Below, piece by piece: positions 13,204 to 35,605 of a DNA stretch of 64,000 nucleotides. Within the stretch, counting starts at the first letter, position 1. Each line of letters starts with the position of its first letter. Origin of the DNA: an uncultured Actinomycetota bacterium. GTDB lineage: Bacteria; Actinomycetota; Actinomycetes; JAHEKZ01. A program made the translations under genes and the position numbers. The stretch covers positions 1,984,001 through 2,048,000 of the forward strand of contig CAVQYR010000001.1 in the NCBI GenBank assembly GCA_963718235.1, given 5' to 3'. Below the pieces are notes generated by a model. It searched no databases, had not been told where the DNA came from, and saw nothing but the letters and a program-made list of their open reading frames with translations.

Positions 13204-13278
13204 GGGCGATTGGCGCAGTCTGGCTAGCGCGCTTCCCTGACACGGAAGAGGTCACTGGTTCAAGTCCAGTATCGCCCA
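13204..13278 (+). tRNA. tRNA-Val(GAC)
   Basis: GGGCGATTGGCGCAGTCTGGCTAGCGCGCTTCCCT-GAC-ACGGAAGAGGTCACTGGTTCAAGTCCAGTATCGCCCA. Confidence 0.96.
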
Positions 13279-18964: not shown

Positions 18965-18979
18965 GGCCAGCCTCCATCG

Positions 18980-19765: not shown

Positions 19766-19808
19766 TGGACCTCCCTCGGCGTGCCCGGTTCGTCAGGCAC
19801 CGAATCTG

Positions 19809-20828
19809 TCAGGCGAACTGCGACAAGTAGCGCTCCGCCAGCTCACAACTGCCGACCGTATAGCCAGCACCGAGCTCTTGGGCGATCTCGACGGCACTGT
19901 GCGACCCGATCCAGGCCACCAGCAACAGCCGACGGAACATGATGAAGGTCCAGATCTCGTCCTCGTCGGCCTTCGGCAGCTCGAGTACCTGGCGGTAGCC
20001 GCGTACCCACGAGTCGACCATCTCCGGGACCTGCGGGTAGTGCTCGATGAAGCTGACGGCGGTCCCCAGGTCGTACAGGAACCAGCTGAACCCACTGTCG
20101 TCGAAGTCGATGACGCTCACATTGCGGCCTTTGGGAGAGTCCTCCACCAGGAGATTCGCCAGCCTCGTGTCCGCATGCACGAGCCCGAACCGGTCCGGTC
20201 CGGCTCCGAAGGCCTCGAGCCGCCGTCTCAGGGTGTCGTCCAACCGGCCGAGCACCTGGCGCTCCTCGACCCCCACTCCGACGCCCTGCTGCCAACGCCC
20301 CCAGCGAGCCTCCGAGCCGAACGCTGCGTCGTAGTCCCATGCGAAGCGGGTGAAGTCGACGGGACGCACCCACTGCCTGGAGTGCCGGTGCATGCGGGCC
20401 GTGATCCGGCCCAGCTCCTCGAAGTCCTCGACCAGTCGGTCCTCCAGGGGCTCGTGCCCGCCCAGGAACTCGAACATGACCACGTTCCGCGGGTGTGCGG
20501 AGCCGGGGTCGGGCACGGTGACCACCCGCTCGCCGACGGTGGTCGGGATCACGTGCGGTGTGCGGATGTCCGCCTCGTCACGTAGGGCGTCGACCCAGGC
20601 CAGCTCGGACTCGATGGCCTCGCGGGTGTGGTAGTCGAGTCGATGCACGCGCAGGATGTGCTTGTCTCCGGTCATCGGGTCGTCCACGCGGAAGGTCGCG
20701 TTCTCCGACACGTTGAGGAGGGACACCGTGCAGTCCGGCGAGACGTCGTACGCCTCGAGCGCCTGCTGGGCCACCTCGGTCATCCGGGCCAGGACCTCGT
20801 CACCACCCGACAGGTCATGCACCTGCAT
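19809..20828 (-). CDS. Aminoglycoside-phosphotransferase-fold kinase; probable aminopropanol kinase
   Basis: SENATF, LRVHR, HADTRLANLL (HxDxxxxN), IDFDD motifs. Position in the RMM-type operon. Confidence 0.82.
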   Translation of the reverse strand: MQVHDLSGGDEVLARMTEVAQQALEAYDVSPDCTVSLLNVSENATFRVDDPMTGDKHILRVHRLDYHTREAIESELAWVDALRDEADIRTPHVIPTTVGERVVTVPDPGSAHPRNVVMFEFLGGHEPLEDRLVEDFEELGRITARMHRHSRQWVRPVDFTRFAWDYDAAFGSEARWGRWQQGVGVGVEERQVLGRLDDTLRRRLEAFGAGPDRFGLVHADTRLANLLVEDSPKGRNVSVIDFDDSGFSWFLYDLGTAVSFIEHYPQVPEMVDSWVRGYRQVLELPKADEDEIWTFIMFRRLLLVAWIGSHSAVEIAQELGAGYTVGSCELAERYLSQFA

Positions 20829-20846
20829 CAGCCGCCTCCTTCCGCG

Positions 20847-21515
20847 TCAGTGGTCGCGTCCTTCGACCGCCTCGAGCACCTGGGTGATGCCCTCACGCGC
20901 CCGCTCGACCCCCTCAGTGTCCCCCGAGATGAACAGCCGTCCAGCTGCACCGATCATCTGGACGTCGACCAGAGTGTTCTCCGGGGCCACCTTCTCCGCC
21001 TCGTTCGCCGCAACCGCTGCGAACAGCGCTGGCGTCATCTCGTACACCAACAGCGTCTCACCGGGCATGACCATGGACGCCTGGCGGTTCCGGTTCACGA
21101 TGACGGCGTGCTGGTCGGTGATGTCGTGGATCACGTCGGAGTAGAGGACTCGCGGCCGGAGCTGGTCCGACGGTGACGCACCGATCCCGTTCAAGATCGC
21201 GCGCCCCGCGCGCTGGACGTCCTCGAGGTCACGACCGTGCACCTCGAGCACCCCGAACTGGCGCTCGACGAACAGGATCCCGGGTTCGACCGTCGGCACC
21301 GACTTCAGCGCCAGGTCGATCACTCGCTCGATCGCCAGGCCCGGTGCCACCTCGACGATCAGCGCATGGTCACCCTGGAAGGGTGGATACCCCCGCGCCC
21401 GGGTGGGCGTCCCGAGGTACGCAGCGAACTGACGCTGCAGGTCCTCGATCAGCAGGTAGACGCGTAGCTCGGTCCGAGGAGCCTCCGACGCGCCTGCCAG
21501 GGGCGAGTCCGTCAT
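20847..21515 (-). CDS. BMC shell protein, tandem-domain BMC-T
   Basis: ELRVY, EVAPGLAIE, VERQFGVLEVH, ANEAEK, GAAGRLFISG: circularly permuted BMC-T signature. Confidence 0.88.
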   Translation of the reverse strand: MTDSPLAGASEAPRTELRVYLLIEDLQRQFAAYLGTPTRARGYPPFQGDHALIVEVAPGLAIERVIDLALKSVPTVEPGILFVERQFGVLEVHGRDLEDVQRAGRAILNGIGASPSDQLRPRVLYSDVIHDITDQHAVIVNRNRQASMVMPGETLLVYEMTPALFAAVAANEAEKVAPENTLVDVQMIGAAGRLFISGDTEGVERAREGITQVLEAVEGRDH

Positions 21516-21518
21516 GCC

Positions 21519-21803
21519 TCACTCTCCCCCGGTGACCTTGAAGTTCTTGCTCAGCTCGGCGTGCGGGCGTGGGATGACGTGCACGGACACGAGCTCTCCG
21601 ATCGAGGCAGCGGTCTCTGCCCCGGCCTCGGTGGCTGCCTTGACGGCTCCCACGTCACCGACGATGGTCACGGCGACGAGCCCGTCGCCCACCTCGTCGC
21701 GGCCGACGATGGTCACGTTGGCCGCCTTGACCATGGCGTCGGCCGCTGCCAGCGCAGCGACGTACCCCTTGGTCTCGATCATTCCGATCGCGTTGTTCGA
21801 CAT
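21519..21803 (-). CDS. BMC shell protein, BMC-H hexamer
   Basis: [37 protein letters not shown] canonical BMC-H motifs. GGAGAG RBS. Confidence 0.95.
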
Positions 21804-21846
21804 CACTCTCTCCTCTTGCAGTGCGCGACGTACGTCGTCGCGGGCT

Positions 21847-22131
21847 TCAGGACTCCGCCCGGTGGGCACCGGTCGGTGCGGGTACGTCGACGTGGTCGAT
21901 GGACCCGATGATCAAGGCATCCAGGGGCGGTGGCTTGCCGGGAAACCAGGCCGCGGCTACCGACCCGGTGGCAACCAGGACGTGCTCACCGACCCCACTG
22001 CCGAGGACGTCGAACGCCACCATGCGGCTCCCGGAGTCCTCCACCTCGACCTCGAGGAACGCACCGTTCGGCAGCTCCTCCAGCCGTCTGGTCGCCCAGA
22101 CGTTCCCGACGACGACTGCTCGCAACATCAC
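21847..22131 (-). CDS. BMC vertex protein, BMC-P (EutN/CcmL family)
   Basis: [36 protein letters not shown] motifs. Confidence 0.92.
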
Positions 22132-22589
22132 GGCTCCCTTTCGATGACGACGCCCAGGGCTCGCGCCTTGTCGCGGGCCAACGGCGTCAGAACGGCGCGC
22201 CGGCCGAGGAGCAGGGTCGCCCCGACCCGTGCGGCGTCCTTCACCTGCGCCTCGGTGACAGCTCCCTTGTCGATCCGACGCGAGGGGGGTGTTCGACCCG
22301 GCTGGGACCCGGCGGTCAGAACGAACCTGATCCGGCCGGACACCAGGTCGGCCCGCTGCTTGGGGTTGTCGGCCATGCTCAACACCCGCAGTGCGAACGC
22401 ATGCAGCTCGGTGTCGTCGCGCAAGGACACCTCATGGACGGTCTGCCCTGCGGCAGCGTCTGTGGAGAGCACCGTCGATGTGTCTCGGGCGGGCATCGTC
22501 CCGACGGCGTCTGGCAGCTCGTCCGACAGCACCTGTCGGATCATGGCACGCAGCCCGTCTCGGTCGAGGGAGCCCATGGACGAGGTCAC
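22128..22589 (-). CDS. BMC-associated hypothetical protein with N-terminal encapsulation-peptide-like helix
   Basis: N-term LDRDGLRAMIRQVLSDEL amphipathic helix. C-term GAVTEAQV...AVLTPLARDKARALGVVI module seen in BMC loci. Confidence 0.7.
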   Translation of the reverse strand: MTSSMGSLDRDGLRAMIRQVLSDELPDAVGTMPARDTSTVLSTDAAAGQTVHEVSLRDDTELHAFALRVLSMADNPKQRADLVSGRIRFVLTAGSQPGRTPPSRRIDKGAVTEAQVKDAARVGATLLLGRRAVLTPLARDKARALGVVIEREP

Positions 22590-23188
22590 CCGACCTCCCG
22601 CAGCGCGGCTTCGGCGGCCTCGGCCGCCTGCCGGACGTCGGACTCGGCACCGGCGAGGTACACCCGGCCCGTCGCTCCGATCATCCGATAGTCGACCACC
22701 TTGATCCGAGCGGCCTTCTCGGCTTCGTTGGTCGCGAGAATGGCGTACGACGCCGGCTGCATCTCCAGGACGAACAGCGACTCGCCGGGGAGGGCCATCG
22801 AGCCCATCTTGTTGCGGTTGATCAAGAACGCGTGCTGGTTGTCCAGCATGGTGATGATCTTCGCCGCCAGCACCTGTGGCTTGGTCGCGTCACTCTCCCG
22901 GGCCCCGAGCTCGTCGAGGACGGCGGACGCTGCGCTACGCACCTGAGCGGTGGGCCCGTGGATCTCGAGGTAGCCGAACTGTCGTTCGACGACGAGGATC
23001 CCGGCCGACACCTCAGCGTGCTTGAGCGCGACGTCGGTGAGCGGCTCGATGTCCAGCCCTGGAGCGATCTCGATCACCTGGGCCGCCATGTTGCTGCGCG
23101 GGAGGCTGCCCTTGATCCAGGTGCCGAGGTAGCTCATGGTCTGAGGCTGCATCTGGTCGATGAAGATGAACGAGCGAAGGTCTGCCAC
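22586..23188 (-). CDS. BMC shell protein, tandem-domain BMC-T (second copy)
   Basis: DLRSFIFID, EIAPGLDIE, VERQFGYLEIH, NEAEKAA, GATGRVYLAG. Paralogue of 20847..21515. Confidence 0.88.
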   Translation of the reverse strand: MADLRSFIFIDQMQPQTMSYLGTWIKGSLPRSNMAAQVIEIAPGLDIEPLTDVALKHAEVSAGILVVERQFGYLEIHGPTAQVRSAASAVLDELGARESDATKPQVLAAKIITMLDNQHAFLINRNKMGSMALPGESLFVLEMQPASYAILATNEAEKAARIKVVDYRMIGATGRVYLAGAESDVRQAAEAAEAALREVG

Positions 23189-23189
23189 G

Positions 23190-24764
23190 TCAGCCCCTGA
23201 TGATCTGGTTGAGCTCTTCGACGATCATGCGTCGGATCTCCTCACGGACGTCAGCGGCTTCGATGGTCAGGTCGGCACCCTGCCGGTGCGCAGCGGCTTC
23301 CGTCGCTGGTGAGGCAGCGTCGAGGTTCGACGCCGTCGGGTAGGGCGGCACGTGTCCTTGCGGATGAACCCACGGCACCATCCCCGAGAACTCGCCGAAC
23401 GGCTCGTCGACGTCGGAGTTGTAGGCGATCCGCGTCCAGTTCACCAGGTGCTTGGGCTGCAGGTTCTCACCCACCGAGGATCGTCCGGCGAATCCGGTCC
23501 CGATGGTCATCGACGGCGGCAGGTTGGTCTCGATCCCCGAGCTACCGAGGCTGTTGCCCACGTTGACCGACACGCGCAGCACCGGCACGGCTGCGCTGTA
23601 GCTCATCACCGTGCGAGCGTCCTTGCTGTGAATGGCGGCCGAGTGGCCAGCGCCGGTGATCCGGAGCACCGCGCGTGCCACATCGATCCCGCGGTCCACG
23701 TTCGGCACGGTCACCAGGCCGAGCACGGGACACAGCTTCTCGTGCGCCAGCAGCTCCTCTGGCACCACGAGGTCGAACGGGGCCAGCAGCACCTTGGTGT
23801 TGGCGTGCACCCTGATCCCCGCCTGGTCGGCGATCCAGGCTGCGCTCTTGCCCACCATGCGGGTGTCGAAGTGACCGGCAGGGAAGAGCAGGGCCCGGAT
23901 GCGGTCCCGCTCGTCGTCCGCCAACAGGTAGGCGCCCTCCCGCTCCATGAGCTTGGTGAGCCGTTCGCGAACCGACTCCTCGACGATGAGGACACTCTCG
24001 TTGGTGCACAGGATCGAGTGGTCGAAGCTCTTGCTCTCGATGATCCGGCGGGCCGCCTTCGCCAGATCTGCCGAGGCATCGACGAGCACGGGGACGTTGC
24101 CCGGCCCCACCCCGATCGCCGGGTTCCCCGACCGGTAGGCGGCCCGGACGACGGGAGATCCCCCGGTCGCCACGATGACGTCGGTCCGCTCGTCGGTCAT
24201 GAGGGCGTTGATCAGGGGGACCGACGGCTCCTCGACAACCTGCACGATCCCGTCCGGGGCGCCGGCAGCGACCGCGGCGTCCGCCATCGTCCGCGCTGCA
24301 TCGGCACAGACCACGCGAGCGAACGGGTGCGGACTGATCACGATGGCGTTCCGGGTCATCAGCGCCAGCAGCGTCTTGAAGAAGACACTGGCCACCGGGT
24401 TCGTGGACGGCGTGAGCGCGAGGACGACACCGGCCGGCCTGGGTACCTCGACGATCTTCGCGGCGTGGTCGATCCGGGGGGTCACGTAGTCGTGGTCGCG
24501 GTACGTCTGGACCAGGCCCCGCGAGCAGGACATGTTCTTCAGCAACTTGTGCTCGGCGACGCCGAAGCCGGTCTCGGCCACCGCGCGCTCGGCGAACTCC
24601 TCAGCCCGCGCCGCCCCGGCCTCGGCCGCGGCTTGAACGACACGGTCGACGGTGGCCTTGTCGTAGCGGGCGTATGCCTGCGCTGCCCAGTCGGCGCGCT
24701 CGACCATGGCACGACCCCGGGGCACCCCGGCGGGTTCCATCACCAGCTCTGCGGTCTCGCTCAC
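23190..24764 (-). CDS. CoA-acylating aldehyde dehydrogenase (EutE/PduP-like) with C-terminal encapsulation peptide
   Basis: TPSTNP, SPHP, ATGG, GVGPGN, SKSFDHSILCTNE (catalytic Cys), EKLCPVL, GHSAAIHS motifs. GTG start overlaps the upstream stop. Confidence 0.88.
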   Translation of the reverse strand: MSETAELVMEPAGVPRGRAMVERADWAAQAYARYDKATVDRVVQAAAEAGAARAEEFAERAVAETGFGVAEHKLLKNMSCSRGLVQTYRDHDYVTPRIDHAAKIVEVPRPAGVVLALTPSTNPVASVFFKTLLALMTRNAIVISPHPFARVVCADAARTMADAAVAAGAPDGIVQVVEEPSVPLINALMTDERTDVIVATGGSPVVRAAYRSGNPAIGVGPGNVPVLVDASADLAKAARRIIESKSFDHSILCTNESVLIVEESVRERLTKLMEREGAYLLADDERDRIRALLFPAGHFDTRMVGKSAAWIADQAGIRVHANTKVLLAPFDLVVPEELLAHEKLCPVLGLVTVPNVDRGIDVARAVLRITGAGHSAAIHSKDARTVMSYSAAVPVLRVSVNVGNSLGSSGIETNLPPSMTIGTGFAGRSSVGENLQPKHLVNWTRIAYNSDVDEPFGEFSGMVPWVHPQGHVPPYPTASNLDAASPATEAAAHRQGADLTIEAADVREEIRRMIVEELNQIIRG

Positions 24765-26051
24765 GACGCCCTCCGACCGAGGTGGGCGACCTCGGCCCGG
24801 GCTTTGGCTATCGCCACCTCGGTCCGGTCGAGCAGCTCCTCCACGATCTCCGGCTTGAGCAGGATCCCGGGCTTGTACTGCAGCACCCGGGGGTCGAGTG
24901 TGGAGAAGATCGCCCACACGCCGTTCTCGTACAGGTTCTTCATGACGTACTTGGCGCCCTGGGGGTGGTCGAACTCAAGCCCCATTACGACGCCGTTCTG
25001 CCGGATGCCGACGAACCAGTCCGGGTACGTCGCCTGGATCTCACGCAAGCCTCGTCCGATCCGGTCGGCGATGTAGTGCACCATCGAGCGGGTCTCGGGC
25101 CGGCTGGAGATCTCCAGGGCCTTCAACGCGGCGATGCACCCCAGCTCGGCCCCGCCGAACGTGGAGATGTGGCCGAAGCCGTCCTCCTCCAGCCACCCGG
25201 CGGCGGCGTCGGTGACCAGGACGGCTGCGATCGGGTACATACCCCCGCTGATGCCCTTGCCGGTGACCAGGATGTCCGGGGTGATGCCGTGCTTGGTGAT
25301 GCCCCACAGCTCACCGGTCCGCATCAGGCCGGTCTGCACCTCGTCGGCGATGTAGAGGGAGCCGTACCTCTCACACATCCCTTTGACGGCCTCGAGGTAG
25401 CCCGGGTTCAGGCAGGGGGAAACCGTAGGTGGCCGGGATCGTCTCCATGATGACGGCCGCCACGTCACGCCCACGCAGCGCGGCGTCCATGGCGTCGAGG
25501 TCGTTGAACGGGACGTGCGGGAACTCCTCCGGCTGGTCGGACAGGAACAGCTTGGAGAACCGGTCGTCACCGGTGGCCACGGCCAGGCCGGTGTGTCCGT
25601 GGTACGCCTTGACGATGGACACGATCTTGCGTCGCTGTGTGGCATGGCGAGCGGTCTTGAGCGCGATGTCGATCGCCTCACCACCGCCACTGCCGTAGAC
25701 GACCTTGGCCAGACCCTCAGGGGCTGAGGTGATCAACGCCTCGGCGAGCGCCGTGCGCGCGAGCGAAGGGAAGTGGTGGTTGCCGATGTCGAAGCGCTGC
25801 ATGGCCACGGTGACGGCCTGAACGATCTCGCTGTTGCGGTGGCCGAGGCTGTAGGTGCCGCCGTTGAGGTGCACGTCGATCAACCGCTGGCCGGACATGT
25901 CGTAGATGAAGTACTCCTCGCGCCGGTCGATGACCAGCGGTACCCCTGAGTCGATCCAGAACTGGGTCTTGCCGGGGTTCCAGAACTCCTTCGACTTCGC
26001 CAGGACGTCGTCCTTGGAGTCGAAGCTGAAGAACCCGTAGTCGAAGGCCAT
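24761..26051 (-). CDS. Class III PLP enzyme; probable aminopropanol-phosphate phospho-lyase; one apparent +1 frameshift at ~25401-25406
   Basis: N-half in ORF 25371..26141 (LGHRN, GGEAIDIALK, YHGHT, ETIPATYG). C-half in ORF 24761..25690 (ADEVQTGLMRTG, PDILVTGKGISGG, HISTFGG). Removing one G from CCCGGGCTAC restores FPLPEPGYLEAVK. Confidence 0.82.
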
Positions 26052-26109
26052 GACCACCGTCCGTCGCCCGGCGTCCCTTCGGTCGAGCGGCCCGTGCCCG
26101 AAGTCGCCG

Positions 26110-26165
26110 TGTAGACCAAATACGAATTGGTACAGACCCAATTGTTACCTGATCAGACCAAAACG
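26110..26165. promoter_or_regulatory. Putative GntR/HutC-family operator array in the divergent promoter
   Basis: AGACC(A/C) at 26113, 26134 and 26155 (exact 21-bp period). Central palindrome AATTGG-TACAGAC-CCAATT (26125-26143). AT-rich patch. Resembles the TGGTNTAGACCA-type HutC-subfamily consensus. Confidence 0.6.
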
Positions 26166-26395
26166 GTCAATAGGTCCCGCAAGAGCGAGCCGAAACCGGT
26201 CGAAGACTCGCCCGCGAACCCCTCGAGAAACGCTGGACACTGGGCCGAACGAGTGCCACCATCGGCCCACCCTGTGGCGTAGGTCACAAGGGACGCGGTC
26301 CAGGTTGGCGCCGATCGGGGCGATTCGGTCCGGTCGGTGAGCCACCTTGGCTCGCGCAGGTGTCCAGTAGATCGGCCACGACGAAGGGCGAACTC

Positions 26396-27987
26396 GTGAC
26401 AGCACCCCAGAACCTGACGGGCGACCAGTTCGAACACGCGCCCGTCCCCCGCGCAGAGAGCTCCAACAAGCTCAAGGTCGGCGCCATCGGACTGTTCGGC
26501 GTCTTGTTCATGGCGGTGGCCAACGCGGCCCCGATCACGGCCATGACCGGCAACGTGCCGATCGCGGTCGCCTTCGGCAACGGCATCGGCGCCCCCGCCG
26601 GCTTCCTCGTCGCCACGATCGTGCTGACCCTCTTCACGGTCGGCTTCATCGTCGATGGCTCGGTACATCACCACCGCAGGTGCCTTCTACGGCTTCATCT
26701 CGCACGGGCTCGGCCAGATCTGGGGTATGGCCGCCGGGGCGCTGGCCACCATGGCCTACGTCGTGTTCGAGGGCTCCCTGATCGGGATCTTCTCCTACTT
26801 CGGCAACAGCGTGCTCAACGACTGGTTCGGCTGGAACATCAACTGGCTGATCATCGCCATCATCGGCATCGTGGTCGATCGCGATCTTCGGCTACTACGA
26901 CATCAACATCGCCGCCGCCGTGCTCGGCGTTCTTCCTGTCTGCGAGGTGCTCCTCCTCGGAGCGATCGCCTTCGGGATCTTGTTCCAGGGCGGCGGACCC
27001 GACGGCATCATCACCGAGGCGGTCAACCCGGCAAACGCCTTCAAGAACGGCCCTGAAGGGGGCGGGCTTCGGCATCGAGGGCCTTGCTGCCGGCAGCGCC
27101 GCGATCGGCGTCTTCTTCGCCTTCTGGTCGTGGGTGGGCTATCGAGACGACCGCGGTGTACGGCGAGGAGTCGCGGAACCCGAAGAAGATCGTGCCGATG
27201 GCCACGCTCATCGCGGTGGTCGGCCTCGGCCTGTTCTACACCTTCGTCTCATGGATGGTCATCTCCGGGAACGGCGTCGAGCAGTCGTTCAAGCTTGGCC
27301 CTCACCGACAGCATCGGGATGTTCACCGGGCAGGCCGACGACGTGCTGGGCAGCTGGTCGGTCTACGTCTACCAGTTCCTCATCGTGATGGGTTCCTTCG
27401 CGTGTGCGCTTGCCTTCCACAACGCGGCATCTCGCGTACATCTACGCAGTCGGCCGCGAGCTTCCTGCCACCAAGAACACCCTGGGCGCGACGCATGGAG
27501 TTCACCACTCGCCCCACATCGCGTCGGCGGTGCAGGCGGTGATCACCCTGCTGTTCACCTCGGCTTCTACTTCCTGACCGTCGGGGGCGACGACCCAGTT
27601 CAAGGCGCGTACATCTACCAGTACGGCCTGCTCGCAGTGCTCGGGACGTTCGCGATCTTGATCGTGCAGGCCATCTGTTCGCTCGCCGTCATCTGGTACT
27701 TCCATGTGAAGAAGGTGCACCCCGGCAACATCGTCACTACGGGGATCATCCCGGCACTCGGCGGGCTCGGCATGGCTCTACGTCTGCTACTTGCTGATCA
27801 GAACACGGGAGTTCGCCGGCGGCGGTGCGGCGGGCTCGCCGTTCTTCACCTGCATCTGGTATCACCGTGGTGGGTACTTTCCTCCTCGGCCTGTTCGGGG
27901 CTTTGTACCTGCGCAGCTCCAGCCCGACGTTTCCAGTCGATCGGCCGCACCGTGCTCGAAGAGCGCGCGAACGCGCCTGTCCCCTGA
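26396..27987 (+). pseudogene. APC-family amino acid/amine permease with many frameshifts (pseudogene or sequencing error)
   Basis: Permease segments alternate among frames: ANAAPITAMTGNVP; MARYITTAGAFYGFISHGLG; FFAFWSWVG / ETTAVYGEESRNPKK; GSFACALAFHNAASR; HSPHIAS; IIPALGGLGM. At least 8 frame changes. Confidence 0.8.
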
Positions 27988-28050
27988 CCTGACCGGATGC
28001 GAGGTGCGGGAAGCTCTCCGCACCCGCTCTGGCGTCCGGACGCGAACTCG

Positions 28051-29091
28051 ATGGAGTTCCAGCCGATGATCCGTCCAGTTCGGCATGATCGACCGGACGC
28101 CGAGCCGAGCGGCCCGACCTACACCTTCGGCGGGGCGGCGCCGGTGGCCACCATCCGTCCGGGCACGATCCTGTCGACATCGACCCTGGACTGCTTCGCC
28201 GGCAGGGTCCGCACGACGTCCGACCTGTCGTCGCAGGTGTGCGACCCGCGCTACCTGAACCCGCAGACCGGGCCCTTCTACGTCGAGGGCGCCGAGCCGG
28301 GAGACACCCTGGCGGTTCACTTCGTCAGCATCGAGCCCCATGAGGACTGGGGCGTGAGCACGACGGTCCCACTCTTCGGAGCCCTCACCAGCACACCGAC
28401 CACGGCAACCCTGCAGCCCGCGCTGCCCGAGCTGACCTGGATCTACGAGCTCGACCGGCAGGAGCGCCTGGTCCACTACAGCGCCCTGCGCAGCAGCCAC
28501 ACCGTGGCCCTGCCCATGGACCCGATGCACGGAACGGTGGGAGTCGCACCCGGACTCGGAGAGGTGCGCTCGTCACTGGCCCCGGGCGACTGGGGCGGGA
28601 ACATGGACACCCCGGAGATGCGCGTCGGGACGACGTGCTACCTCGGGGTGAACGTCGAAGGAGCCCTGTTCAGCCTGGGTGACGGCCATGCCCGACAGGG
28701 CGAGGGGGAACCCTGCGGGGTCGCGGTCGAGTGCGCCATGGACTCCGTGCTCCTCGTCGAACTCATCAAGGGAGTCCCCACACCGTGGCCGCGGCTCGAG
28801 AACGACACCTTCGTCATGACCACCGGGTCGACCAAGCCGCTCGAGGACGCCTTCCGGGTGGCCCACGTGCAGATGGTGCGGTGGGTCGCCGAGCTGACCG
28901 GGCTGGACGAGATGGATGCCTACCAGCTCGTGGCACAGGCCGCACTGACGCCGGTGGCCAACGTCTGCGACACCGTGTACACCATGGTCTGCAAGGTCGC
29001 CAAGGACTACCTGCCCGGCGCCCAGCCGATGCAGGGCACGCACACCCGGATGCGAGCAGTCGCCGACACCTGGCGTGAGGCGCAACGATGA
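28051..29091 (+). CDS. Acetamidase/formamidase family protein
   Basis: LNPQTGPFYVEGAEPGDTLAV, PMHGTVGVAP, GGNMD, GALFSLGDGHARQGEGE..G.AVE motifs. Start uncertain (28051-28066). Confidence 0.88.
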   Translation: MEFQPMIRPVRHDRPDAEPSGPTYTFGGAAPVATIRPGTILSTSTLDCFAGRVRTTSDLSSQVCDPRYLNPQTGPFYVEGAEPGDTLAVHFVSIEPHEDWGVSTTVPLFGALTSTPTTATLQPALPELTWIYELDRQERLVHYSALRSSHTVALPMDPMHGTVGVAPGLGEVRSSLAPGDWGGNMDTPEMRVGTTCYLGVNVEGALFSLGDGHARQGEGEPCGVAVECAMDSVLLVELIKGVPTPWPRLENDTFVMTTGSTKPLEDAFRVAHVQMVRWVAELTGLDEMDAYQLVAQAALTPVANVCDTVYTMVCKVAKDYLPGAQPMQGTHTRMRAVADTWREAQR

Positions 29092-29498
29092 CCTCAGTCG
29101 ACCTGGCCTTCGCCCTGCGCATGTGCCGTGCAGCCGTCGAGCGCGCATCCCACCTCGACGCGCTCGTCTCGGTCGCCGTGGTCGATGCGGGAGGCCACCT
29201 CGTCGCCTTCCAGCGCATGGACGGCGCCGAGATCGCCGGGCCGACGCTGGCCACCGACAAGGCGTACACGGCGGTCGCACACCGGATCGCGACCCATGAG
29301 CTCACCGCGCTCACCGCACCCGGGGGCGCGCTGCAAGGCATGTACTCGAACGGTGGGGGCCGCTACATCGCCTTCGGCGGTGGCCTGCCACTGTGGCGGG
29401 CCGGCGGCGTGGTCGGGGGCGTCGGCGTCAGCGGCGGGACCGCGGCGCAGGACCTCGAGAGCGCGCGGTCCGCGGCCGCACTGTGGGACATTGACTGA
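29088..29498 (+). CDS. GlcG/HbpS/PduO-C-terminal-type heme-binding protein
   Basis: VAVVDAGGHLVAFQRMDGA, KAYTA, FGGGLPL, GGVGVSGG...QD motifs. Confidence 0.88.
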   Translation: MTSVDLAFALRMCRAAVERASHLDALVSVAVVDAGGHLVAFQRMDGAEIAGPTLATDKAYTAVAHRIATHELTALTAPGGALQGMYSNGGGRYIAFGGGLPLWRAGGVVGGVGVSGGTAAQDLESARSAAALWDID

Positions 29499-29499
29499 C

Positions 29500-31743
29500 A
29501 TGGGTGGGGCGAGGGAACCGGTCGGACGCATCCGGTTCATGGATGCCCAGAACGTCAACCTCGACGGGTTCGCCGTCGAGAACGCCGATCTCGGCCTGAT
29601 CGCACTGCACTCACCGCACGACCCCGAGCCGAGCCTGGTCGTTCGCGACAACCGGGTCGTCGAGCTGGACGGGGTCGCCGAGGAGGACTTCGACTCCCTC
29701 GACGAGTTCATCGCCCGTCACGGGCTCGACCTGTCCGTGGCTGCCGAGGCGATGGCCCTGACCGACCTCGACGTCGCCCGCCTGCTGGTCGACTCCGCAG
29801 TTCCCCGTACCGAGGTCGTCCGGCTGTCGGCCGGCATGACGCCGGCCAAGCTCACCCGCTGCCTCGCCCTGTTACGTCCGGCGGAGCTGGTCATGGCGAT
29901 GACCAAGATGCGCGCCCGGCGCACGCCCAGCAACCAGGCACACGTGACCAACCGACTCGACGACCCGATGCTCCTGGCGGCCGACGCCGCCACCGCAGCC
30001 GCCTTCGGGTTCCGCGAGGTCGAGACCACCGTGCCGGTGCTCGCCGACGCGCCGTCGAACGCCGTGGCGGTGACGATCGGTGCGGCAGTCGGCTCCCCCG
30101 GGGTGCTCGTGCAGTGCTCGGTCGAGGAGGCCCTCGAGCTCGAGCTCGGCATGCGCGGCTTCGTGTCGTATGCCGAGACCGTGTCGTTGTACGGCACCGA
30201 GCAGGTGTTCACCGATGGTGATGACACTCCGTGGTCCAAGGCCTTTCTGACGTCTGGATACGCCTCGCGGGGCATCAAGATGCGCGTCTCCTCCGGTGCC
30301 GGGTCCGAGGTGCTGATGGGTGGGGCGGAGCGCCGCTCGATGCTCTACCTGGAGGCGCGCTGCGTCGCTCTGGCCCGGGCCATGGGTTCGCAGGGCGTGC
30401 AGAACGGCGGCATCGACGGTGCGAGCGTCGCCGGGGCCGTTCCCCGTGGCGTGCGTGAGCTGATGTGCGAGAACGTCATGGTGATGATGCGCAACCTTGA
30501 GTCCTGTTCCGGCAACGACGCGTTGATGTCGGAGTCCGACGTGCGCCGCACGTCGCGCACGCTGCCGATCTTCCTAGCCGGCTCGGACTTCATCTGCAGC
30601 GGCTTCGGCTCGATCCAGCGCTACGACAACATGTTCGGGCCGAGCCAGTGGAACGCCGAGGACATCGACGACTACCTGGCGATGCAGCGCGACTGGGGCG
30701 TCGACGGTGGGCTACGCACGGCCCAGGCCGAAGATGTCGCGCGGCTGCGGCGCCGCGCAGTCGATGCGGTGCGAGCCGTGTACGGGTGGTTCGGGCTGGC
30801 CGAGTTCGACGACCAGCACGCTGCCCTCGCCGTCGACGCGGCTGGTTCGAAGGACCTCGGCGACACCGACGCCATGAAGGTGCTCGACGCGGCTCGAACG
30901 ATCCAGGAGTCCGGCCTCACGATCCTCGACGTCGTCACGGCGCTGTACGAGACGGGGTTCGAGACCGAAGCCGCACGGGTGCTCGAGATGATGAAGGCCC
31001 GGGTGGCCGGTGACTACCTGCAGTCCGCGGCCATCTTCGACGAAGCGATGAACGTCCTGTCCCTCGTCACCGACCCCAACGACTACGCGGGTCCCGGCAC
31101 CGGCTACACACCCACGGCGGAGCGGCAGGACGAGATCGATGCGATCCGTCAGCAGCGGTCGGTCGAGGACCTCCGGGCCGAGCAGCGCAGCCACGCGAGT
31201 GCCGCACTTCGGCAGGTCGGAGTGGCGGGGCCCGGGGCCGATCCCCGAGAAGTGGTCATCGGTGTCTCGCCCGCGGTGGGACGCGACATCTGGCTGACCC
31301 TCTCCGGACTCTCCGTCGTCGATGCCCTCGCCGAGCTGCTGGCGGGCCTCGAGGAGGAAGGATGCGTCGGCCGCATCATTCGGGTCAACGACACCATCGA
31401 CCTCGGCATGATCGGCCTGACCGCCGCACGGCTGTCCGGGTCGGGGATCGGCATCGGCCTGCAGGGCAAGGGAACGGCGCTGATCCACCGACGCGACCTG
31501 CCCCCCTTGGCGAACCTCGAGCTGTACAGCATCGCGCCTGTGGTCGGAGCAGACCTGTACCGCCTGCTCGGCGTGAACGCGGCCCGCCACGCGAAGGGCG
31601 CCACACCGGAGCCGGCCCGCAACCCCTACACCGACGAGGCGATCGAGGCGCGCTACCACACCAAGGTGGTCTCGCTGGTCGCGATCGAGCGTGCTCACTG
31701 CAGGCCCTCTGCGCCACCTGACGAGCTGGAGTCACCGGTATGA
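29500..31743 (+). CDS. Adenosylcobalamin-dependent diol/glycerol dehydratase homologue, fused large (alpha) + medium (beta) subunits
   Basis: Alpha motifs: VNLDGF, RARRTPSNQAHVTN, ETTV, QCSVEEA, YAETVSLYGTE, DGDDTPWSK, YASRGIKMR, YDNMF, GDYLQS, NDYAGPGTGY. Beta motifs follow in frame: EVVIGVSPA, GLEEEG, LSGSGIGIGLQGKGT, LANLELY, NAAR.AKG. Confidence 0.92.
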   Translation: MGGAREPVGRIRFMDAQNVNLDGFAVENADLGLIALHSPHDPEPSLVVRDNRVVELDGVAEEDFDSLDEFIARHGLDLSVAAEAMALTDLDVARLLVDSAVPRTEVVRLSAGMTPAKLTRCLALLRPAELVMAMTKMRARRTPSNQAHVTNRLDDPMLLAADAATAAAFGFREVETTVPVLADAPSNAVAVTIGAAVGSPGVLVQCSVEEALELELGMRGFVSYAETVSLYGTEQVFTDGDDTPWSKAFLTSGYASRGIKMRVSSGAGSEVLMGGAERRSMLYLEARCVALARAMGSQGVQNGGIDGASVAGAVPRGVRELMCENVMVMMRNLESCSGNDALMSESDVRRTSRTLPIFLAGSDFICSGFGSIQRYDNMFGPSQWNAEDIDDYLAMQRDWGVDGGLRTAQAEDVARLRRRAVDAVRAVYGWFGLAEFDDQHAALAVDAAGSKDLGDTDAMKVLDAARTIQESGLTILDVVTALYETGFETEAARVLEMMKARVAGDYLQSAAIFDEAMNVLSLVTDPNDYAGPGTGYTPTAERQDEIDAIRQQRSVEDLRAEQRSHASAALRQVGVAGPGADPREVVIGVSPAVGRDIWLTLSGLSVVDALAELLAGLEEEGCVGRIIRVNDTIDLGMIGLTAARLSGSGIGIGLQGKGTALIHRRDLPPLANLELYSIAPVVGADLYRLLGVNAARHAKGATPEPARNPYTDEAIEARYHTKVVSLVAIERAHCRPSAPPDELESPV

Positions 31744-32099
31744 GCGCGCCTGGACGCTCCGGGCGCCTCGCGCACGAGGTCACCCTCGATGCCGTGCGGT
31801 CCGGTGATGTCACCATCGACGACGTACGCATCCACCCAGACACCCTCGAGCACCAGGCGCAGGTCGCCGAAAGCCACGGAAACCCTCAGCTCGCGGCCAA
31901 CTTCCGCCGCGCTGCAGAGCTCACCGCGATTCCCGACGCCGACGTGCTGCGCATCTATGAGGCCCTGCGGCCCCACCGCAGCACTCCCGACGACTTCGAA
32001 GCCATCGCCCGCTGGCTGGAGGAGCGCGCCGCCCCACTCAACGCGGAGCTGGTCCGAGAGGCGGCACGCGTCTACGTCCGGCGGGGTCTCAGCCGGTGA
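31740..32099 (+). CDS. Diol dehydratase small (gamma) subunit, N-terminally short
   Basis: GRLAHEVTLDAV, QLAANFRRAAEL, YEALRPHRST, VREAARVY..R motifs of the PduE/DhaB3 family. ATGA overlap. Confidence 0.9.
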   Translation: MSAPGRSGRLAHEVTLDAVRSGDVTIDDVRIHPDTLEHQAQVAESHGNPQLAANFRRAAELTAIPDADVLRIYEALRPHRSTPDDFEAIARWLEERAAPLNAELVREAARVYVRRGLSR

Positions 32100-33790
32100 C
32101 CGTTGTCGCCGGGGTGGACATCGGAAACGCGACCACCGAGGTCGTGGTGGCGCGCCTCGACGGCAACGCGCTGGTCCCCGTCGCCTGGGACCGCACGATG
32201 ACCCGTGGCGGCAAAGGCTCCCAGTCGTCTGTGGACGGGGCGGCAGCGCTGTTGCGCCGGCTGGAGCGACAGGGGGCCCCATCGCCGACGGTCGTTGCTC
32301 TTGCACCGCTGCGACCCGTGGGCACCGAGGCGCTCGTGCTCCCCGAGCCACCCCTCGACACCGGGCGGCTCGTGATCGGTGCCTCCGGGGTTCCGACCGC
32401 GGGTGGAGCCGGCCATGGAGTGGGCAGGCCGGTCATGCTCGCCGACCTCACCGGCTCCGGCGCCTCAGCCACCGACACGATCGTCCTGGCGCCGAGCGAC
32501 GTCGGCTATCGCGACGTTGCCTCGGCTGTCGCCTCGGCACTGGAGGCAGGGGTGCCCGTGCGTGGCGTCGTCCTGGCCAGCGACGACGCGGTGCTCGTGG
32601 CCAACCGGCTGCCGACCGACCTTCCGGTCGTCGACCAGGCGGACGTCGTCGCCCTTCAGCTCTGTCGGAAGGTCATCGTCGAGGTGCGCGCCGCTGGACA
32701 ACCGGTGCGGGCGGCCTCCGACGCGCTGCACCTCGCGTCGTCGCTGCACCTCGGTCCTCCGGACGCGACGGCGGTTGCCGTGGTGTGCCGGTCCCTGTTC
32801 GACGTGTCGAACGCGGTGGTCGGGGTTCGCGAGGAGCCGGCGCCTCCCGCTGCGTCGATGCCGAGCGCGTGGGTCGAGCTGTCCGACGGGGCGTCACTGC
32901 CGATGTCCGAAGCCCATCACCTGCTCCGGGATGGCCCCCCCGGTCTGGCTCACCGGGTCGGCCTCCCAGCGGCGTCCGGGGACCGCGTGCTCGAGGTCGA
33001 CGACCTCGGGACCGTGCATCTGGGCGCAGTGGCGGACGTCGTCGTCAGTCGCTCCGGCAGCACCGTCTCGCGGTCCTACGCGCTGTCCGCACTTCACCGT
33101 GACCCGGTGGTCGTGGCGGCCGCGCAGCTGGGTGAGGCAACCGGTTTGCCGGTGGTCACGGTCGACAGCGAGGCAGCCTCGTCGAGACGAGGTGCCCTGA
33201 CGACACCAGGAGCGACCACGGACTGCGCTGTGGTGGACCTGGGTGGTGGCACGGTCGACGTGACCACCACCGAGGCTGAGACCGTCGTCGCCGGCGCCGG
33301 CGACCTGCTCACCGTCTCCACCGCAGCCACGCTTGGACTGCCCCGAGGAGCGGCCGAGTGGGTCAAGCGGGTGCCGTGCCATCGGGTCGAGACGCCACAC
33401 CTGCTCGTCGGCGAGGACGGGTCGCGCACCTTCGTCGACGGACGTCTGCCCGGTGACCACGTGGGATCCCTGGTGGTGCCCGGACCGGCCGGCTGGCTGG
33501 CCTTCGACCGGTCGTTGGCGGCGGCCGAGTGGCGAGCCCTTCGTCTCGCCCTGAAGCGCGAGGTGCTCGGGGGTGCGGTACGACGGGCGCTGCGCGCCTG
33601 CGGACCGCTGCCCAGCACCGTGGTGCTCGTCGGCGGGCCGGCAGGGGACGACGAGGCCGTGGCCACCGTGTCGCGCGTGCTCCCGGCCCAGACAGCAGTG
33701 GGGCGCGGTAACGTCGCAGGTATGCTCGGGCACCGCTACGCCGTCGCCTTCGGCCTGGCGCTGGGCGCCACGGCGCACCACTCGGCCTGA
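32096..33790 (+). CDS. Diol dehydratase reactivase alpha subunit (PduG/DdrA-like)
   Basis: GVDIGNATTEV, DDAVLVANRL, DLGGGTVD, AGAGD, VVLVGG, GRGNVAG...YAVAFGL motifs. Confidence 0.85.
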   Translation: MTVVAGVDIGNATTEVVVARLDGNALVPVAWDRTMTRGGKGSQSSVDGAAALLRRLERQGAPSPTVVALAPLRPVGTEALVLPEPPLDTGRLVIGASGVPTAGGAGHGVGRPVMLADLTGSGASATDTIVLAPSDVGYRDVASAVASALEAGVPVRGVVLASDDAVLVANRLPTDLPVVDQADVVALQLCRKVIVEVRAAGQPVRAASDALHLASSLHLGPPDATAVAVVCRSLFDVSNAVVGVREEPAPPAASMPSAWVELSDGASLPMSEAHHLLRDGPPGLAHRVGLPAASGDRVLEVDDLGTVHLGAVADVVVSRSGSTVSRSYALSALHRDPVVVAAAQLGEATGLPVVTVDSEAASSRRGALTTPGATTDCAVVDLGGGTVDVTTTEAETVVAGAGDLLTVSTAATLGLPRGAAEWVKRVPCHRVETPHLLVGEDGSRTFVDGRLPGDHVGSLVVPGPAGWLAFDRSLAAAEWRALRLALKREVLGGAVRRALRACGPLPSTVVLVGGPAGDDEAVATVSRVLPAQTAVGRGNVAGMLGHRYAVAFGLALGATAHHSA

Positions 33791-35493: not shown

Positions 35494-35605
35494 GGTTCTC
35501 CCCTGCTCGACTGCCCCAAGAATGCCCGTCACGAGCCTCCGCGCACAACGCGGGTCACTGCATTGACCCCGACGGGGTGAGTCGGCCCCCCGGCTGTGAC
35601 ACCCT

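What the first reader, a model, noticed from the sequence alone, without database searches (positions are those of the whole stretch)
29500..31743. B12 'diol dehydratase' with an acidic, enlarged substrate pocket (Ser301->Asp, Gln336->Ala): candidate amino-diol dehydratase feeding the microcompartment
Seen: GVQNGGIDGA...ESCSGNDALMS aligns without gaps to the Klebsiella PddA segment I recall as GLQ296NGSV300S301C...ASSND335Q336. Equivalents of the catalytic/metal residues Gln141, His143, Glu170, Glu221, Gln296, Asp335, Ser362 and Phe374 are kept. Position 301 is Asp (codon 30415-30417) and position 336 is Ala (30520-30522). Established: Ser301 and Gln336 shape the pocket for the C3 substituent, and S301A/Q336A mutants were used to change substrate range and glycerol inactivation. 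Inference: a carboxylate at 301 plus extra room at 336 suits a cationic C3 amine, e.g. 3-amino-1,2-propanediol. Its dehydration could yield aminoacetone (the entry substrate of the neighbouring operon) or 3-aminopropanal. A deaminase activity on amino alcohols is an alternative. I know of no characterised B12 enzyme with this chemistry.
Basis: partly seen in the sequence, partly recalled or inferred. Interest (0 to 1): 0.88.

Follow-up and report, generated by a model that had tools for sequence, protein, structure and literature searches.

The report
Acid-pocket B12 diol dehydratase clade
This is an intact vitamin-B12 diol dehydratase from a large, uncharacterised branch of the family that has an aspartate in its substrate pocket and sits almost always beside amino-alcohol breakdown genes, so it may act on an amine-bearing diol, which nobody has yet tested.

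Summary
The 747-aa fused alpha-beta dehydratase (29500-31743) aligns without gaps to solved diol and glycerol dehydratases. The metal and catalytic residues are kept. Position 301 is Asp (GAC, 30415-30417) and position 336 is Ala (GCG, 30520-30522).

Asp301 is not a one-off. On a tree it defines one branch of the family (SH-aLRT 99). Six further columns also separate that branch, among them His340Glu and Tyr178Asp, and all lie on the catalytic face of the modelled barrel.

In 28 of 29 related loci with full flanks, the enzyme lies within 10 kb of the aminopropanol dehydrogenase, kinase and phospho-lyase genes. This holds in two gene orders and in loci without shell genes. None of 17 Ser301-type loci does.

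- The locus type (RMM2) was described in 2014.
- Ala336 is not required, because mycobacterial RMM2 enzymes have Asn336, and Ala336 also occurs with Ser301.
- Canonical regiochemistry predicts 3-aminopropanal as the product, not aminoacetone.

The amino-diol substrate remains an inference (about 0.4). No activity was measured, and 14 mycobacterial relatives showed none of the amine-pathway genes searched for; the two inspected follow a lipid acyltransferase gene.

The parts
29500..31743 (+). Fused alpha-beta subunit of an AdoCbl diol/glycerol-family dehydratase (747 aa), Asp301 type
   Evidence: PF02286 and PF02288. NF011979 at 848 bits against a cut-off of 788. PDB matches.
30415..30417 (+). 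Codon GAC = Asp at the position of K. oxytoca Ser301. Gly follows at 302, where the canonical enzymes have Cys.
   Evidence: Asp in 103 of 103 D-branch rows and Ser in 21 of 21 S-branch rows, where the rows were sorted by this residue.
30520..30522 (+). Codon GCG = Ala at the position of Gln336, followed by Leu337 and Met338
   Evidence: This position varies within the Asp301 branch: Ala, Asn, Ser or Thr.
30532..30534 (+). Codon for Glu at the position of His340, a second branch-defining acidic change
30046..30048 (+). Codon for Asp at the position of Tyr178, a third branch-defining acidic change, in the loop after the Glu170 strand
   Evidence: Column test. Position computed from the offset of 5. 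Residue D183 of the protein. Strand and loop positions.
31740..32099 (+). Gamma (small) subunit, 119 aa. Its start overlaps the alpha-beta stop (ATGA).
   Evidence: PF02287, E 1.5e-38. Junction read.
32096..33790 (+). Reactivase alpha subunit (564 aa), start overlapping the gamma stop (GTGA). No separate beta subunit was found in the genome.
   Evidence: PF08841 and PF18427. The only PF02288 match in the genome is the beta domain of the fusion.
29088..29498 (+). HbpS/PduO-C-terminal-domain-like accessory protein (136 aa). Its stop lies 1 base before the dehydratase start.
   Evidence: PF03928. Best PDB match is 5cx7, an entry titled ATP:cob(I)alamin adenosyltransferase, 147 aa. It is also found beside Ser301-type dehydratases.
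27997..29091 (+). Acetamidase/formamidase-family hydrolase (364 aa)
   Evidence: PF03069. PDB 5ubu, E 8.6e-61. Present in 22 of the 61 related loci.
26360..27987 (+). APC-family amino-acid/amine permease, first gene of the dehydratase operon. In the window it reads in several frames.
   Evidence: An intact 535-aa homologue in L005 has AA_permease_2. Frame changes. Near-identical short contigs lack single bases at these places.
18167..26141 (-). Divergent RMM / aminoacetone-utilisation operon: GntR, SDR dehydrogenase, APH-family kinase, BMC-like 222-aa protein, BMC-H, EutN/CcmL BMC-P, an unassigned 153-aa ORF, BMC-domain 200-aa protein, acylating-type aldehyde dehydrogenase, and class-III aminotransferase-fold enzyme (frame break near 25410)
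   Evidence: Pfam. NCBIfam for the aldehyde dehydrogenase. Frame break.

Best explanation
The genes 26360-33790 form one operon: permease, amidase-family hydrolase, PduO-C-like protein, fused alpha-beta dehydratase, gamma subunit and reactivase. It encodes a working adenosylcobalamin-dependent dehydratase of the diol/glycerol dehydratase family.

The radical and metal machinery is canonical, so I expect the canonical chemistry. That means hydrogen abstraction at C1 of a vicinal diol held on the metal ion, a 1,2-shift of the C2 hydroxyl, loss of water, and an aldehyde as product.

What differs is the part of the cavity that holds the substituent on C2/C3. The enzyme belongs to a single branch of the family defined by Ser301Asp, Ser299Gly, His340Glu, Tyr178Asp, Gly174Pro, Leu181Ser and Phe258Val.

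This branch is co-inherited with amine permeases and with the amino-alcohol dehydrogenase, kinase and phospho-lyase module. The co-inheritance holds whether or not a microcompartment shell is encoded.

The most likely reading is that the enzyme is cytosolic. Its substrate would be a small vicinal diol carrying a cationic group next to the diol. The best candidate is 3-amino-1,2-propanediol or a close amino-diol, giving the 3-amino aldehyde.

Shown here: family membership, intact catalytic residues, the clade-wide pocket changes and the gene linkage. Inferred: the cationic substrate, the product and the cytosolic location.
For: Fold and residues:
-.
- Translational coupling of the four core genes.
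- A PduO-type adenosyltransferase and CobS are present in the genome.

Branch:
- Asp against Ser at 301 needs one change on a 124-row FastTree.
- The same holds on a 62-row IQ-TREE, with SH-aLRT 99 for the split.
- Seven columns separate 103 Asp-type from 21 Ser-type rows with no shared residue. The Ser group includes fused enzymes, so the fusion does not explain them.
- In the AlphaFold model all seven lie at the C-terminal end of a barrel strand or in the loop behind it.

Pocket role: Ser301 and Gln336 face the 3-OH of glycerol. S301A and Q336A change Km and the rate of inactivation (review PMC7674605, passages and Table 1).

Linkage:
- Of 61 related loci, 58 read ID[SGA]...DALME.
- 28 of the 29 with at least 9 kb on both sides carry at least two of dehydrogenase, kinase and phospho-lyase. 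24 of those 29 also carry BMC-H.
- Three arrangements occur among those 29: upstream divergent 16, downstream convergent 11, downstream co-directional 1.
- The single exception, L057, is the basal member and has Ser336.
- In a gammaproteobacterial MAG locus (L052) I found no shell gene. There the dehydratase, a PotABCD-like ABC transporter and the three enzymes lie on one strand.

One mycobacterial genus, 59 hits in 41 of 201 genomes; the class counts that follow also include five further loci from the phylum sample:
- 0 of 17 Ser-type loci have these genes or the permease.
- 17 of 36 Asn336 loci have at least two of the enzymes, and five of those 17 have no BMC-H hit.
- 10 of 11 Asp301/Ser-or-Thr336 loci have a divergent APC permease. 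In the one locus inspected, a PucR regulator sits beside it.
Against: - No substrate was measured.
- 16 of the 36 Asn336 mycobacterial loci show none of the amine genes searched for. Two of these are short contigs.
- The two loci of this kind that I inspected (L095, L104) have the dehydratase directly behind a wax-ester-synthase/diacylglycerol-acyltransferase gene. That points to glycerol or lipid metabolism rather than amines.
- An Asp can accept a hydrogen bond from a hydroxyl just as well as it can pair with an amine.
- The locus holds no obvious dedicated enzyme for 3-aminopropanal.
- I know of no abundant natural source of 3-amino-1,2-propanediol (recalled, not searched beyond).
- The model's confidence is low in the pocket loops: mean pLDDT is 61 for residues 301-310 and 54-55 for 341-360. 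No coordinates were available, so no distance was measured.
- Kin are not independent, so the locus counts overstate the number of independent associations.
Confidence: 0.4

Rival explanations
1. It is an ordinary 1,2-propanediol (or glycerol) dehydratase. It would supply propionaldehyde to the aldehyde dehydrogenase of the neighbouring microcompartment. This is the 'bifunctional BMC' of Axen 2014, or a route from aminoacetone through methylglyoxal and propanediol. On this view the pocket changes are neutral drift or tuning.
For: All catalytic and metal residues are canonical. The protein passes the NCBIfam subfamily cut-off for propanediol/glycerol dehydratase large subunits. Axen 2014 offers the bifunctional reading (PMC4207490). 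S301A and Q336A mutants of the Klebsiella enzyme still turn over propanediol and glycerol (PMC7674605 Table 1).
Against: Asp301 is invariant in 103 of 103 rows of the branch, and six other catalytic-face columns are also fixed. That is selection, not drift. A carboxylate next to a methyl group is unfavourable (inference). The enzyme keeps its link to the dehydrogenase, kinase and phospho-lyase genes in loci where the search found neither shell nor aldehyde dehydrogenase genes: L074, L100, L101, L112, L124, L125 and L052. None of the 17 Ser301-type loci lies beside these genes. The same mycobacterial genomes often carry a canonical Ser301/Gln336 enzyme elsewhere.
Confidence: 0.25
2. It dehydrates another polar, uncharged diol or polyol, for example a glycerol derivative or a C4 polyol. 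Asp301 and Glu340 would act as hydrogen-bond acceptors for extra hydroxyls.
For: Ser301 hydrogen-bonds the 3-OH of glycerol in the canonical enzyme. The two relatives inspected that lack amine genes sit behind a WS/DGAT gene. Position 336 varies among Ala, Asn, Ser and Thr within the branch, as expected if sub-clades take different substituents.
Against: This does not explain the near-constant linkage to amine permeases and amino-alcohol enzymes in three sub-clades. It also does not explain three neutral-to-acid changes at once.
Confidence: 0.17
3. It acts directly on an amino alcohol, such as 1-amino-2-propanol, as a B12 ammonia-lyase. That would give propionaldehyde or acetone and bypass the kinase and phospho-lyase.
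For: It is genomically coupled to aminopropanol catabolism. The genome has no EutB-type ammonia-lyase.
Against: All five ligands of the metal ion that binds both substrate hydroxyls are kept. A protonated amine in either hydroxyl site would sit against that cation (inference). The changed residues lie at the C3 side, not at the O1 or O2 sites.
Confidence: 0.1
4. The locus is decaying in this genome, with frame breaks in the permease and the phospho-lyase, and the dehydratase is a relic.
For: Frame changes occur near 25410 and at several places in 26650-27900.
Against: Short contigs from four metagenome runs are nearly identical to the window. They lack single bases at 25410, 26651, 26875, 26928, 27067, 27141, 27293/27298, 27808 and 27861. 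The breaks are therefore probably assembly insertions. The dehydratase, gamma and reactivase frames are intact and full length.
Confidence: 0.04

Closest known systems
Klebsiella oxytoca diol dehydratase PddABC / Salmonella PduCDE / Klebsiella pneumoniae glycerol dehydratase DhaB (PDB 1dio, 1iwp and relatives)
   Same: Same fold and subunit set, and the same metal-ligand and catalytic residues. About 47% identity in the alpha part. An adjacent reactivase alpha and a PduO-C-like protein are present.
   Different: Alpha and beta are naturally fused. The pocket has Asp301, Gly302, Ala336, Leu337, Met338 and Glu340, plus Pro174, Asp178, Ser181, Val258 and Gly299. No reactivase beta subunit was found. 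No N-terminal extension like the targeting peptides of PduD and PduE was seen; the existence of those peptides is recalled.
RMM2 microcompartment locus type (Axen, Erbilgin and Kerfeld 2014)
   Same: The same gene set: GntR, short-chain dehydrogenase, phosphotransferase, shell proteins, aldehyde dehydrogenase, aminotransferase and permease. The diol dehydratase genes lie on the opposite strand.
   Different: In the passages I read, that paper treats the dehydratase as a diol dehydratase homologue and does not discuss its pocket. Here the locus type is found well beyond Mycobacterium and Rhodococcus, in a second gene order, and in versions without shell genes.
Engineered S301A / Q336A diol dehydratase (Yamanishi 2012, seen only as cited in review PMC7674605)
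   Same: The same two positions are changed, and Ala336 in the window matches the engineered Q336A.
   Different: Nature uses Asp, not Ala, at 301, together with six more fixed changes. The engineered variants were made for glycerol resistance and longer 1,2-diols.
Other natural fused alpha-beta dehydratases with Ser301/Ala336 (motif ISC...DAIAH; e.g. L072, P0126)
   Same: Fused architecture and Ala at 336.
   Different: They keep Ser301, Cys302, His340 and the other Ser-branch residues, and fall on the Ser side of the tree. The one locus examined (L072) has no amino-alcohol genes.
Ethanolamine ammonia-lyase EutBC
   Same: A B12 radical enzyme acting on small amino alcohols, and a microcompartment signature enzyme (recalled).
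   Different: An unrelated large-subunit family. No EutB match was found in this genome.

Membership tests
AdoCbl-dependent diol/glycerol dehydratase (PduCDE/PddABC/DhaB123) | Full-length large-subunit domain | tested here: met
   PF02286, positions 5-551 of 552, E 1.7e-235. NF011979 at 848 bits, above the cut-off of 788.
AdoCbl-dependent diol/glycerol dehydratase (PduCDE/PddABC/DhaB123) | Medium and small subunits | tested here: met
   PF02288 is fused at residues 606-703. PF02287 is in the next gene. The beta part aligns to 1iwp_B and 1dio_B.
AdoCbl-dependent diol/glycerol dehydratase (PduCDE/PddABC/DhaB123) | Metal ligands and catalytic residues: Gln141, His143, Glu170, Glu221, Gln296, Asp335, Ser362 | tested here: met
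   All are identical at the gapless offset of 5 and in 58 of the 61 related loci.
AdoCbl-dependent diol/glycerol dehydratase (PduCDE/PddABC/DhaB123) | Propanediol/glycerol-type pocket (Ser301, Gln336) | tested here: not met
   Asp301 and Ala336. This lowers the claim 'it is a propanediol or glycerol dehydratase', not the claim 'it works like one'.
AdoCbl-dependent diol/glycerol dehydratase (PduCDE/PddABC/DhaB123) | Two-subunit reactivase (DdrAB/PduGH) | tested here: inconclusive
   The alpha subunit is present (PF08841 and PF18427). No separate beta was found: the only PF02288 match in the 95%-complete genome is inside the fusion.
AdoCbl-dependent diol/glycerol dehydratase (PduCDE/PddABC/DhaB123) | AdoCbl-dependent dehydration activity | not testable with these tools
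   Needs an enzyme assay.
Encapsulated PDU-type signature enzyme | N-terminal targeting extension on the medium or small subunit | tested here: not met
   The beta domain has no free N-terminus. The gamma subunit is 119 aa and matches the profile from position 20. No conserved upstream extension was seen in 12 loci with shell genes or in 13 without. That such peptides exist in PduD and PduE is recalled.
RMM2 locus (Axen 2014) | RMM core genes together with shell proteins | tested here: met
   GntR, SDR, APH, BMC-H, BMC domain, EutN/CcmL, aldehyde dehydrogenase, class-III aminotransferase and permease.
RMM2 locus (Axen 2014) | Diol dehydratase genes adjacent, on the opposite strand | tested here: met
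   Dehydratase operon at 26360-33790 (+) against the RMM operon at 18167-26141 (-). Definition read.

The most novel reading that the evidence does not exclude
The Asp301 branch is a family of B12-dependent amino-diol dehydratases, a reaction not described for any cobalamin enzyme. They would convert 3-amino-1,2-propanediol, or a related cationic diol taken up by the linked permease, into an amino-aldehyde, as an entry or side route of bacterial amino-alcohol catabolism. The route would be widespread in soil and freshwater Actinomycetota and would have been passed to some Gammaproteobacteria.
Probability: 0.33. Interest if true: 0.8.

Novelty: new variant of a known kind. Interest (0 to 1): 0.62.

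Why it matters
Diol and glycerol dehydratases are textbook B12 radical enzymes, and the substrates I know of (recalled) are uncharged diols. A natural, well-conserved branch with three extra acidic residues on the catalytic face, inherited together with amine transporters and amino-alcohol enzymes, points to a substrate class outside that range.

A handful of assays could settle the matter. If the reading is confirmed, it would add a reaction to B12 enzymology. It would explain why RMM2 loci carry a 'diol dehydratase', a question left open in 2014. It would also correct the 'propanediol/glycerol dehydratase' name given to the relatives that carry one: all 120 best homologues carry the second-site motif and 116 the Asp301 motif, and where a source names them it is as propanediol or propanediol/glycerol dehydratase.

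If the enzyme turns out to be an ordinary propanediol dehydratase, the fixed Asp would still be a useful natural experiment for engineering resistance to glycerol inactivation.

Tried and rejected
- Riboswitch or other RNA element: Rfam at gathering thresholds found only four tRNAs in the window, and no cobalamin riboswitch.
- Expression: no RNA holder listed among the 20 runs returned.
- More specific family names: NCBIfam gave only the generic dehydratase subfamily. It gave nothing above cut-off for the permease, amidase, kinase or phospho-lyase.
- Pocket geometry: the AlphaFold model comes without coordinates and with low confidence in the pocket loops. I could measure no distance and dock no ligand. 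I used it only for strand and loop positions. I ran no fold search, because sequence matches to solved structures were already decisive.

Literature searches:
- Searches for RMM2 with diol dehydratase found only Axen 2014.
- Ser301/Gln336 led to the 2020 review.
- '3-amino-1 2-propanediol' with diol dehydratase gave 0 papers.
- A five-term search on 3-aminopropanal, aminopropanediol, isoserinol, adenosylcobalamin and diol dehydratase listed 15 of 109 papers. None of the 15 listed held any of the three amine terms.
- The M. smegmatis gene names gave only predictions plus one transcriptome, in which none of the three paralogues is highest on glycerol. I did not work out which paralogue is of which pocket type.
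- The library lacks most subscription journals. Liu 2010, Yamanishi 2012 and the Mallette and Kimber papers on the RMM dehydrogenase and kinase were not seen.
- Supplements were closed. Dataset S1 and Table S2 of Axen 2014 and Supplementary Data 3 of Sutter 2021 may list RMM2 gene content that bears on the counts here.

Other points considered:
- Pseudogene idea: rejected as the main reading.
- The fused kinase-M23-aminotransferase gene at 39320-42250 as a conserved partner: only 1 of the 61 loci (L016) has a close homologue, so I dropped it.
- The phylum-wide sample was too sparse for statistics, with 8 of 401 genomes holding the family. The family-level sample gave 3 of 201. I therefore used one genus.
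- Rows dropped: the tree used 118 locus-derived rows, the window and 5 representatives. Loci were left out where the hit began after query residue 30 or the open frame was under 500 aa. In one search only 67 of the 150 listed representatives covered both positions. Many of these are fragments, and some carry frame errors.


Full report
WHAT IS THERE.

The window is high-GC DNA (0.66-0.72). It comes from a 3.17-Mb, two-contig genome that is 95% complete. On the plus strand, 26360-33790 holds six genes:
- an APC-family permease;
- an acetamidase/formamidase-family hydrolase (27997-29091);
- an HbpS/PduO-C-like protein (29088-29498);
- a 747-aa fusion of the large and medium subunits of a B12 diol/glycerol dehydratase (29500-31743);
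- the small subunit (31740-32099);
- a reactivase alpha subunit (32096-33790).

The last four genes are translationally coupled.

Diverging from this operon on the minus strand (18167-26141) is a complete RMM / aminoacetone-utilisation set. It comprises a GntR regulator, a short-chain dehydrogenase, an APH-family kinase, shell proteins (BMC-H, two BMC-like proteins of 200-222 aa, and EutN/CcmL), an acylating-type aldehyde dehydrogenase and a class-III aminotransferase-fold enzyme. The dehydratase and the shell genes are the only copies of their families in this genome.

The alpha part aligns to 1dio_A, 1iwp_A and the engineered fused Klebsiella enzymes with no gap. Query residue n corresponds to K. 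oxytoca residue n-5. At that offset Gln141, His143, Glu170, Glu221, Thr222, Gln296, Asp335, Ser362 and Phe374 are all kept.

QNGAVSC reads QNGGIDG, and NDQTFSHSD reads NDALMSESD. That gives Ser301Asp, Cys302Gly, Gln336Ala, Thr337Leu, Phe338Met and His340Glu.

A 2020 review gives the structural context (passages and Table 1 read). The 3-OH of glycerol points at Ser301 in one binding mode, and S301A and Q336A change Km and glycerol inactivation.

IT IS A CLADE, NOT AN ODDITY.

The word-indexed search scored 7996 relatives. The 120 best are 76-100% identical and 732-799 aa long. All have the second motif, and 116 matched my pattern for the first.

Among 50%-identity representatives, 67 of the 150 listed cover both sites. 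They fall into three pocket types:
- Ser301/Gln336, the canonical type;
- Ser301/Ala336, fused, with motif ISC...DAIAH;
- Asp301-Gly302, fused, with Ala, Thr, Ser or Asn at 336.

On trees of the alpha part, Asp against Ser needs a single change (124 rows). The split has SH-aLRT 99 on 62 rows. The trait's own columns were left in the alignment, 7 of 547.

Seven columns separate the 103 Asp-type rows from the 21 Ser-type rows with no residue shared: Gly174Pro, Tyr178Asp, Leu181Ser, Phe258Val, Ser299Gly, Ser301Asp and His340Glu. The Ser group contains fused enzymes, so the fusion is not the cause.

In an AlphaFold model (mean pLDDT 82) the barrel strands carrying Gln141/His143, Glu170, Glu221, Gln296 and Ser362 are recognisable. 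All seven columns lie at a strand's C-terminal end or in the loop behind it, which is the catalytic face of a TIM barrel. I had no coordinates, so nearness to the substrate rests on the literature for 301 and 336. For the other five columns it is inferred from topology.

GENE LINKAGE.

A pattern scan of one genome per species returned 61 loci. Of these, 58 read ID[SGA]...DALME, one (L057) reads IDG...DSLME, and two are unreadable because of frame breaks.

I searched the loci with the window's own proteins. Of the 29 loci with at least 9 kb on both sides:
- 28 carry at least two of dehydrogenase, kinase and phospho-lyase;
- 24 carry BMC-H;
- 25 carry the aldehyde dehydrogenase.

Three gene orders occur among those 29. 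The amine operon lies upstream and divergent, as in the window, in 16. It lies downstream and convergent in 11, and downstream on the same strand in 1. The exception, L057, is the basal member of the clade and has Ser336. All 28 Ala336 loci with full flanks are therefore linked.

In L052, a gammaproteobacterial MAG with 50% GC, I found no shell gene. The dehydratase genes there are followed on the same strand by a PotABCD-like ABC transporter and the three enzymes.

As a control within single genomes I sampled one mycobacterial genus. 41 of 201 genomes hold the family, with 59 hits in three score classes. I fetched 54 further stretches. The classes, counted together with ten loci fetched from the phylum sample, are as follows:
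- Ser-type loci (16 Ser/Gln and 1 Ser/Ala, five of them from outside this genus): none of the 17 has the amine enzymes or the permease.
- Asp301/Asn336 loci: 17 of 36 have at least two of the enzymes, with the permease directly upstream. Three more are partial contigs with some of the genes. Five of the 17 have no BMC-H hit.
- Asp301/Ser-or-Thr336 loci: none of the 11 has the enzymes, but 10 have a divergent APC permease. In L085 a PucR-family regulator lies beside it.

Against the amine reading, 16 of the 36 Asn336 loci have none of these genes, and two of those are short contigs. In the two I inspected, the dehydratase follows a WS/DGAT acyltransferase gene.

WHAT FOLLOWS.

First, the association of a 'diol dehydratase' with RMM genes is not new. 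Axen and colleagues named it RMM2 in 2014. They noted the opposite strands and left open whether the compartment uses the enzyme. Sutter 2021 keeps the type. In the passages I read, and in eight literature searches, I found no mention of the pocket substitutions or of a B12 enzyme acting on amino-diols. The library lacks many subscription papers, and the supplements were closed.

Second, the linkage is to the amine module and the permease, not to the shell. It survives in loci where the search found no shell or aldehyde dehydrogenase genes. Neither the fusion nor the gamma subunit has an extension in shell-bearing loci that shell-less loci lack. A cytosolic enzyme is the simpler reading.

Third, Ala336 is a feature of the window's sub-clade only. 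The conserved signature is Asp301-Gly302 with Leu337 and Glu340, plus the changes at 174-181, 258 and 299.

Fourth, all ligands of the metal that binds both substrate hydroxyls are kept, so the substrate should still be a vicinal diol. With the amine anchored at the C3 pocket, the canonical 1,2-shift gives a 3-substituted propanal. From 3-amino-1,2-propanediol that product is 3-aminopropanal. Aminoacetone would require hydrogen abstraction at the substituted carbon, which is the opposite orientation. This step is inference from the established mechanism.

HOW IT MOST LIKELY WORKS.

The proposed sequence has four steps:
1. The permease imports a small cationic diol or an amide of one. The amidase-family hydrolase, present in 22 of the 61 loci, may free the amine.
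2. The dehydratase binds the diol on its metal ion, with the ammonium group paired to Asp301. Glu340 and Asp178 may add negative charge to the cavity.
3. The adenosyl radical abstracts hydrogen from C1, the C2 hydroxyl migrates, and water leaves.
4. The reactivase alpha subunit exchanges damaged cofactor. The PduO-C-like protein, together with a PduO-type adenosyltransferase encoded elsewhere, would serve cofactor handling.

The genome lacks CbiC but has CobS, so it probably salvages corrinoids.

I put this reading at about 0.4. The rivals are an ordinary propanediol or glycerol enzyme (0.25), another polar uncharged diol (0.17), a direct amino-alcohol lyase (0.1) and a decaying relic (0.04).

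SIDE RESULT.

The window reads the phospho-lyase in two frames and the permease in at least three. Short contigs from four metagenome runs, some with 0-2 mismatches over 150-356 bases, lack single bases at the same places. These frame breaks are therefore probably insertion errors of the assembly, and the dehydratase genes are unaffected. The best holders may come from the sample the genome was assembled from, so this is a check of the assembly and not independent biology.

VERDICT.

It needs correcting in three respects: novelty of the locus, the role of Ala336, and the expected product. I file it as a new variant of a known kind, with interest 0.62.

Noticed in passing
window 24761-26141 (-) and 26360-27987 (+): The class-III aminotransferase-fold gene has one frame break near 25410, inside a CCCGGG run. 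The permease has several. Near-identical short metagenome contigs lack single bases at 25410, 26651, 26875, 26928, 27067, 27141, 27293/27298, 27808 and 27861. These look like assembly insertions clustered in about 3 kb, while the adjacent 4.3 kb of dehydratase genes have none.
   Followed up: partly
window 32096-33790 and whole genome G000: The reactivase has only an alpha subunit. The sole PF02288 match in the genome is the beta domain of the fused dehydratase. The usual small reactivase subunit, which is swapped for the enzyme's beta subunit during reactivation (recalled), therefore seems to be missing.
   Followed up: partly
window 39320-42250 (+): A 976-aa fusion of an APH-family kinase, a peptidase M23 domain and a class-III aminotransferase fold. 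It may be a second, fused amino-alcohol kinase/phospho-lyase. A 46%-identical homologue lies directly behind the reactivase in L016, but in none of the other 60 loci.
   Followed up: partly
L095 7719-9092 and L104 7719-9113: In mycobacterial Asp301/Asn336 loci without amine genes, a WS/DGAT wax-ester-synthase/acyltransferase gene lies directly upstream of the dehydratase on the same strand. The reason for this pairing is unexplained.
   Followed up: no
L052 8675-9835 and 3423-7824: In the gammaproteobacterial MAG locus, an enolase-superfamily (MR/MLE) gene lies directly upstream of the dehydratase. Nearby are a DHDPS-family gene and an amino-acid ABC transporter. This may be an unrelated hydroxyproline-type cluster.
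   Followed up: no
window 33826-35631 (-): A DUF2252 protein with a low-complexity, histone-H1-like N-terminal region (HC2 and extensin-like Pfam hits) lies just downstream of the reactivase.
   Followed up: no
window 20847-21515 (-) and 22128-22589 (-): The 222-aa protein has no Pfam match but is 41-49% identical at tblastn level to the 200-aa BMC-domain protein of the same operon, so it is probably a divergent shell protein. The 153-aa ORF between BMC-P and that shell gene has no Pfam match.
   Followed up: partly
window 13012-13278 (+) and 4333-4404 (-): Four tRNA genes, three of them clustered.
   Followed up: no
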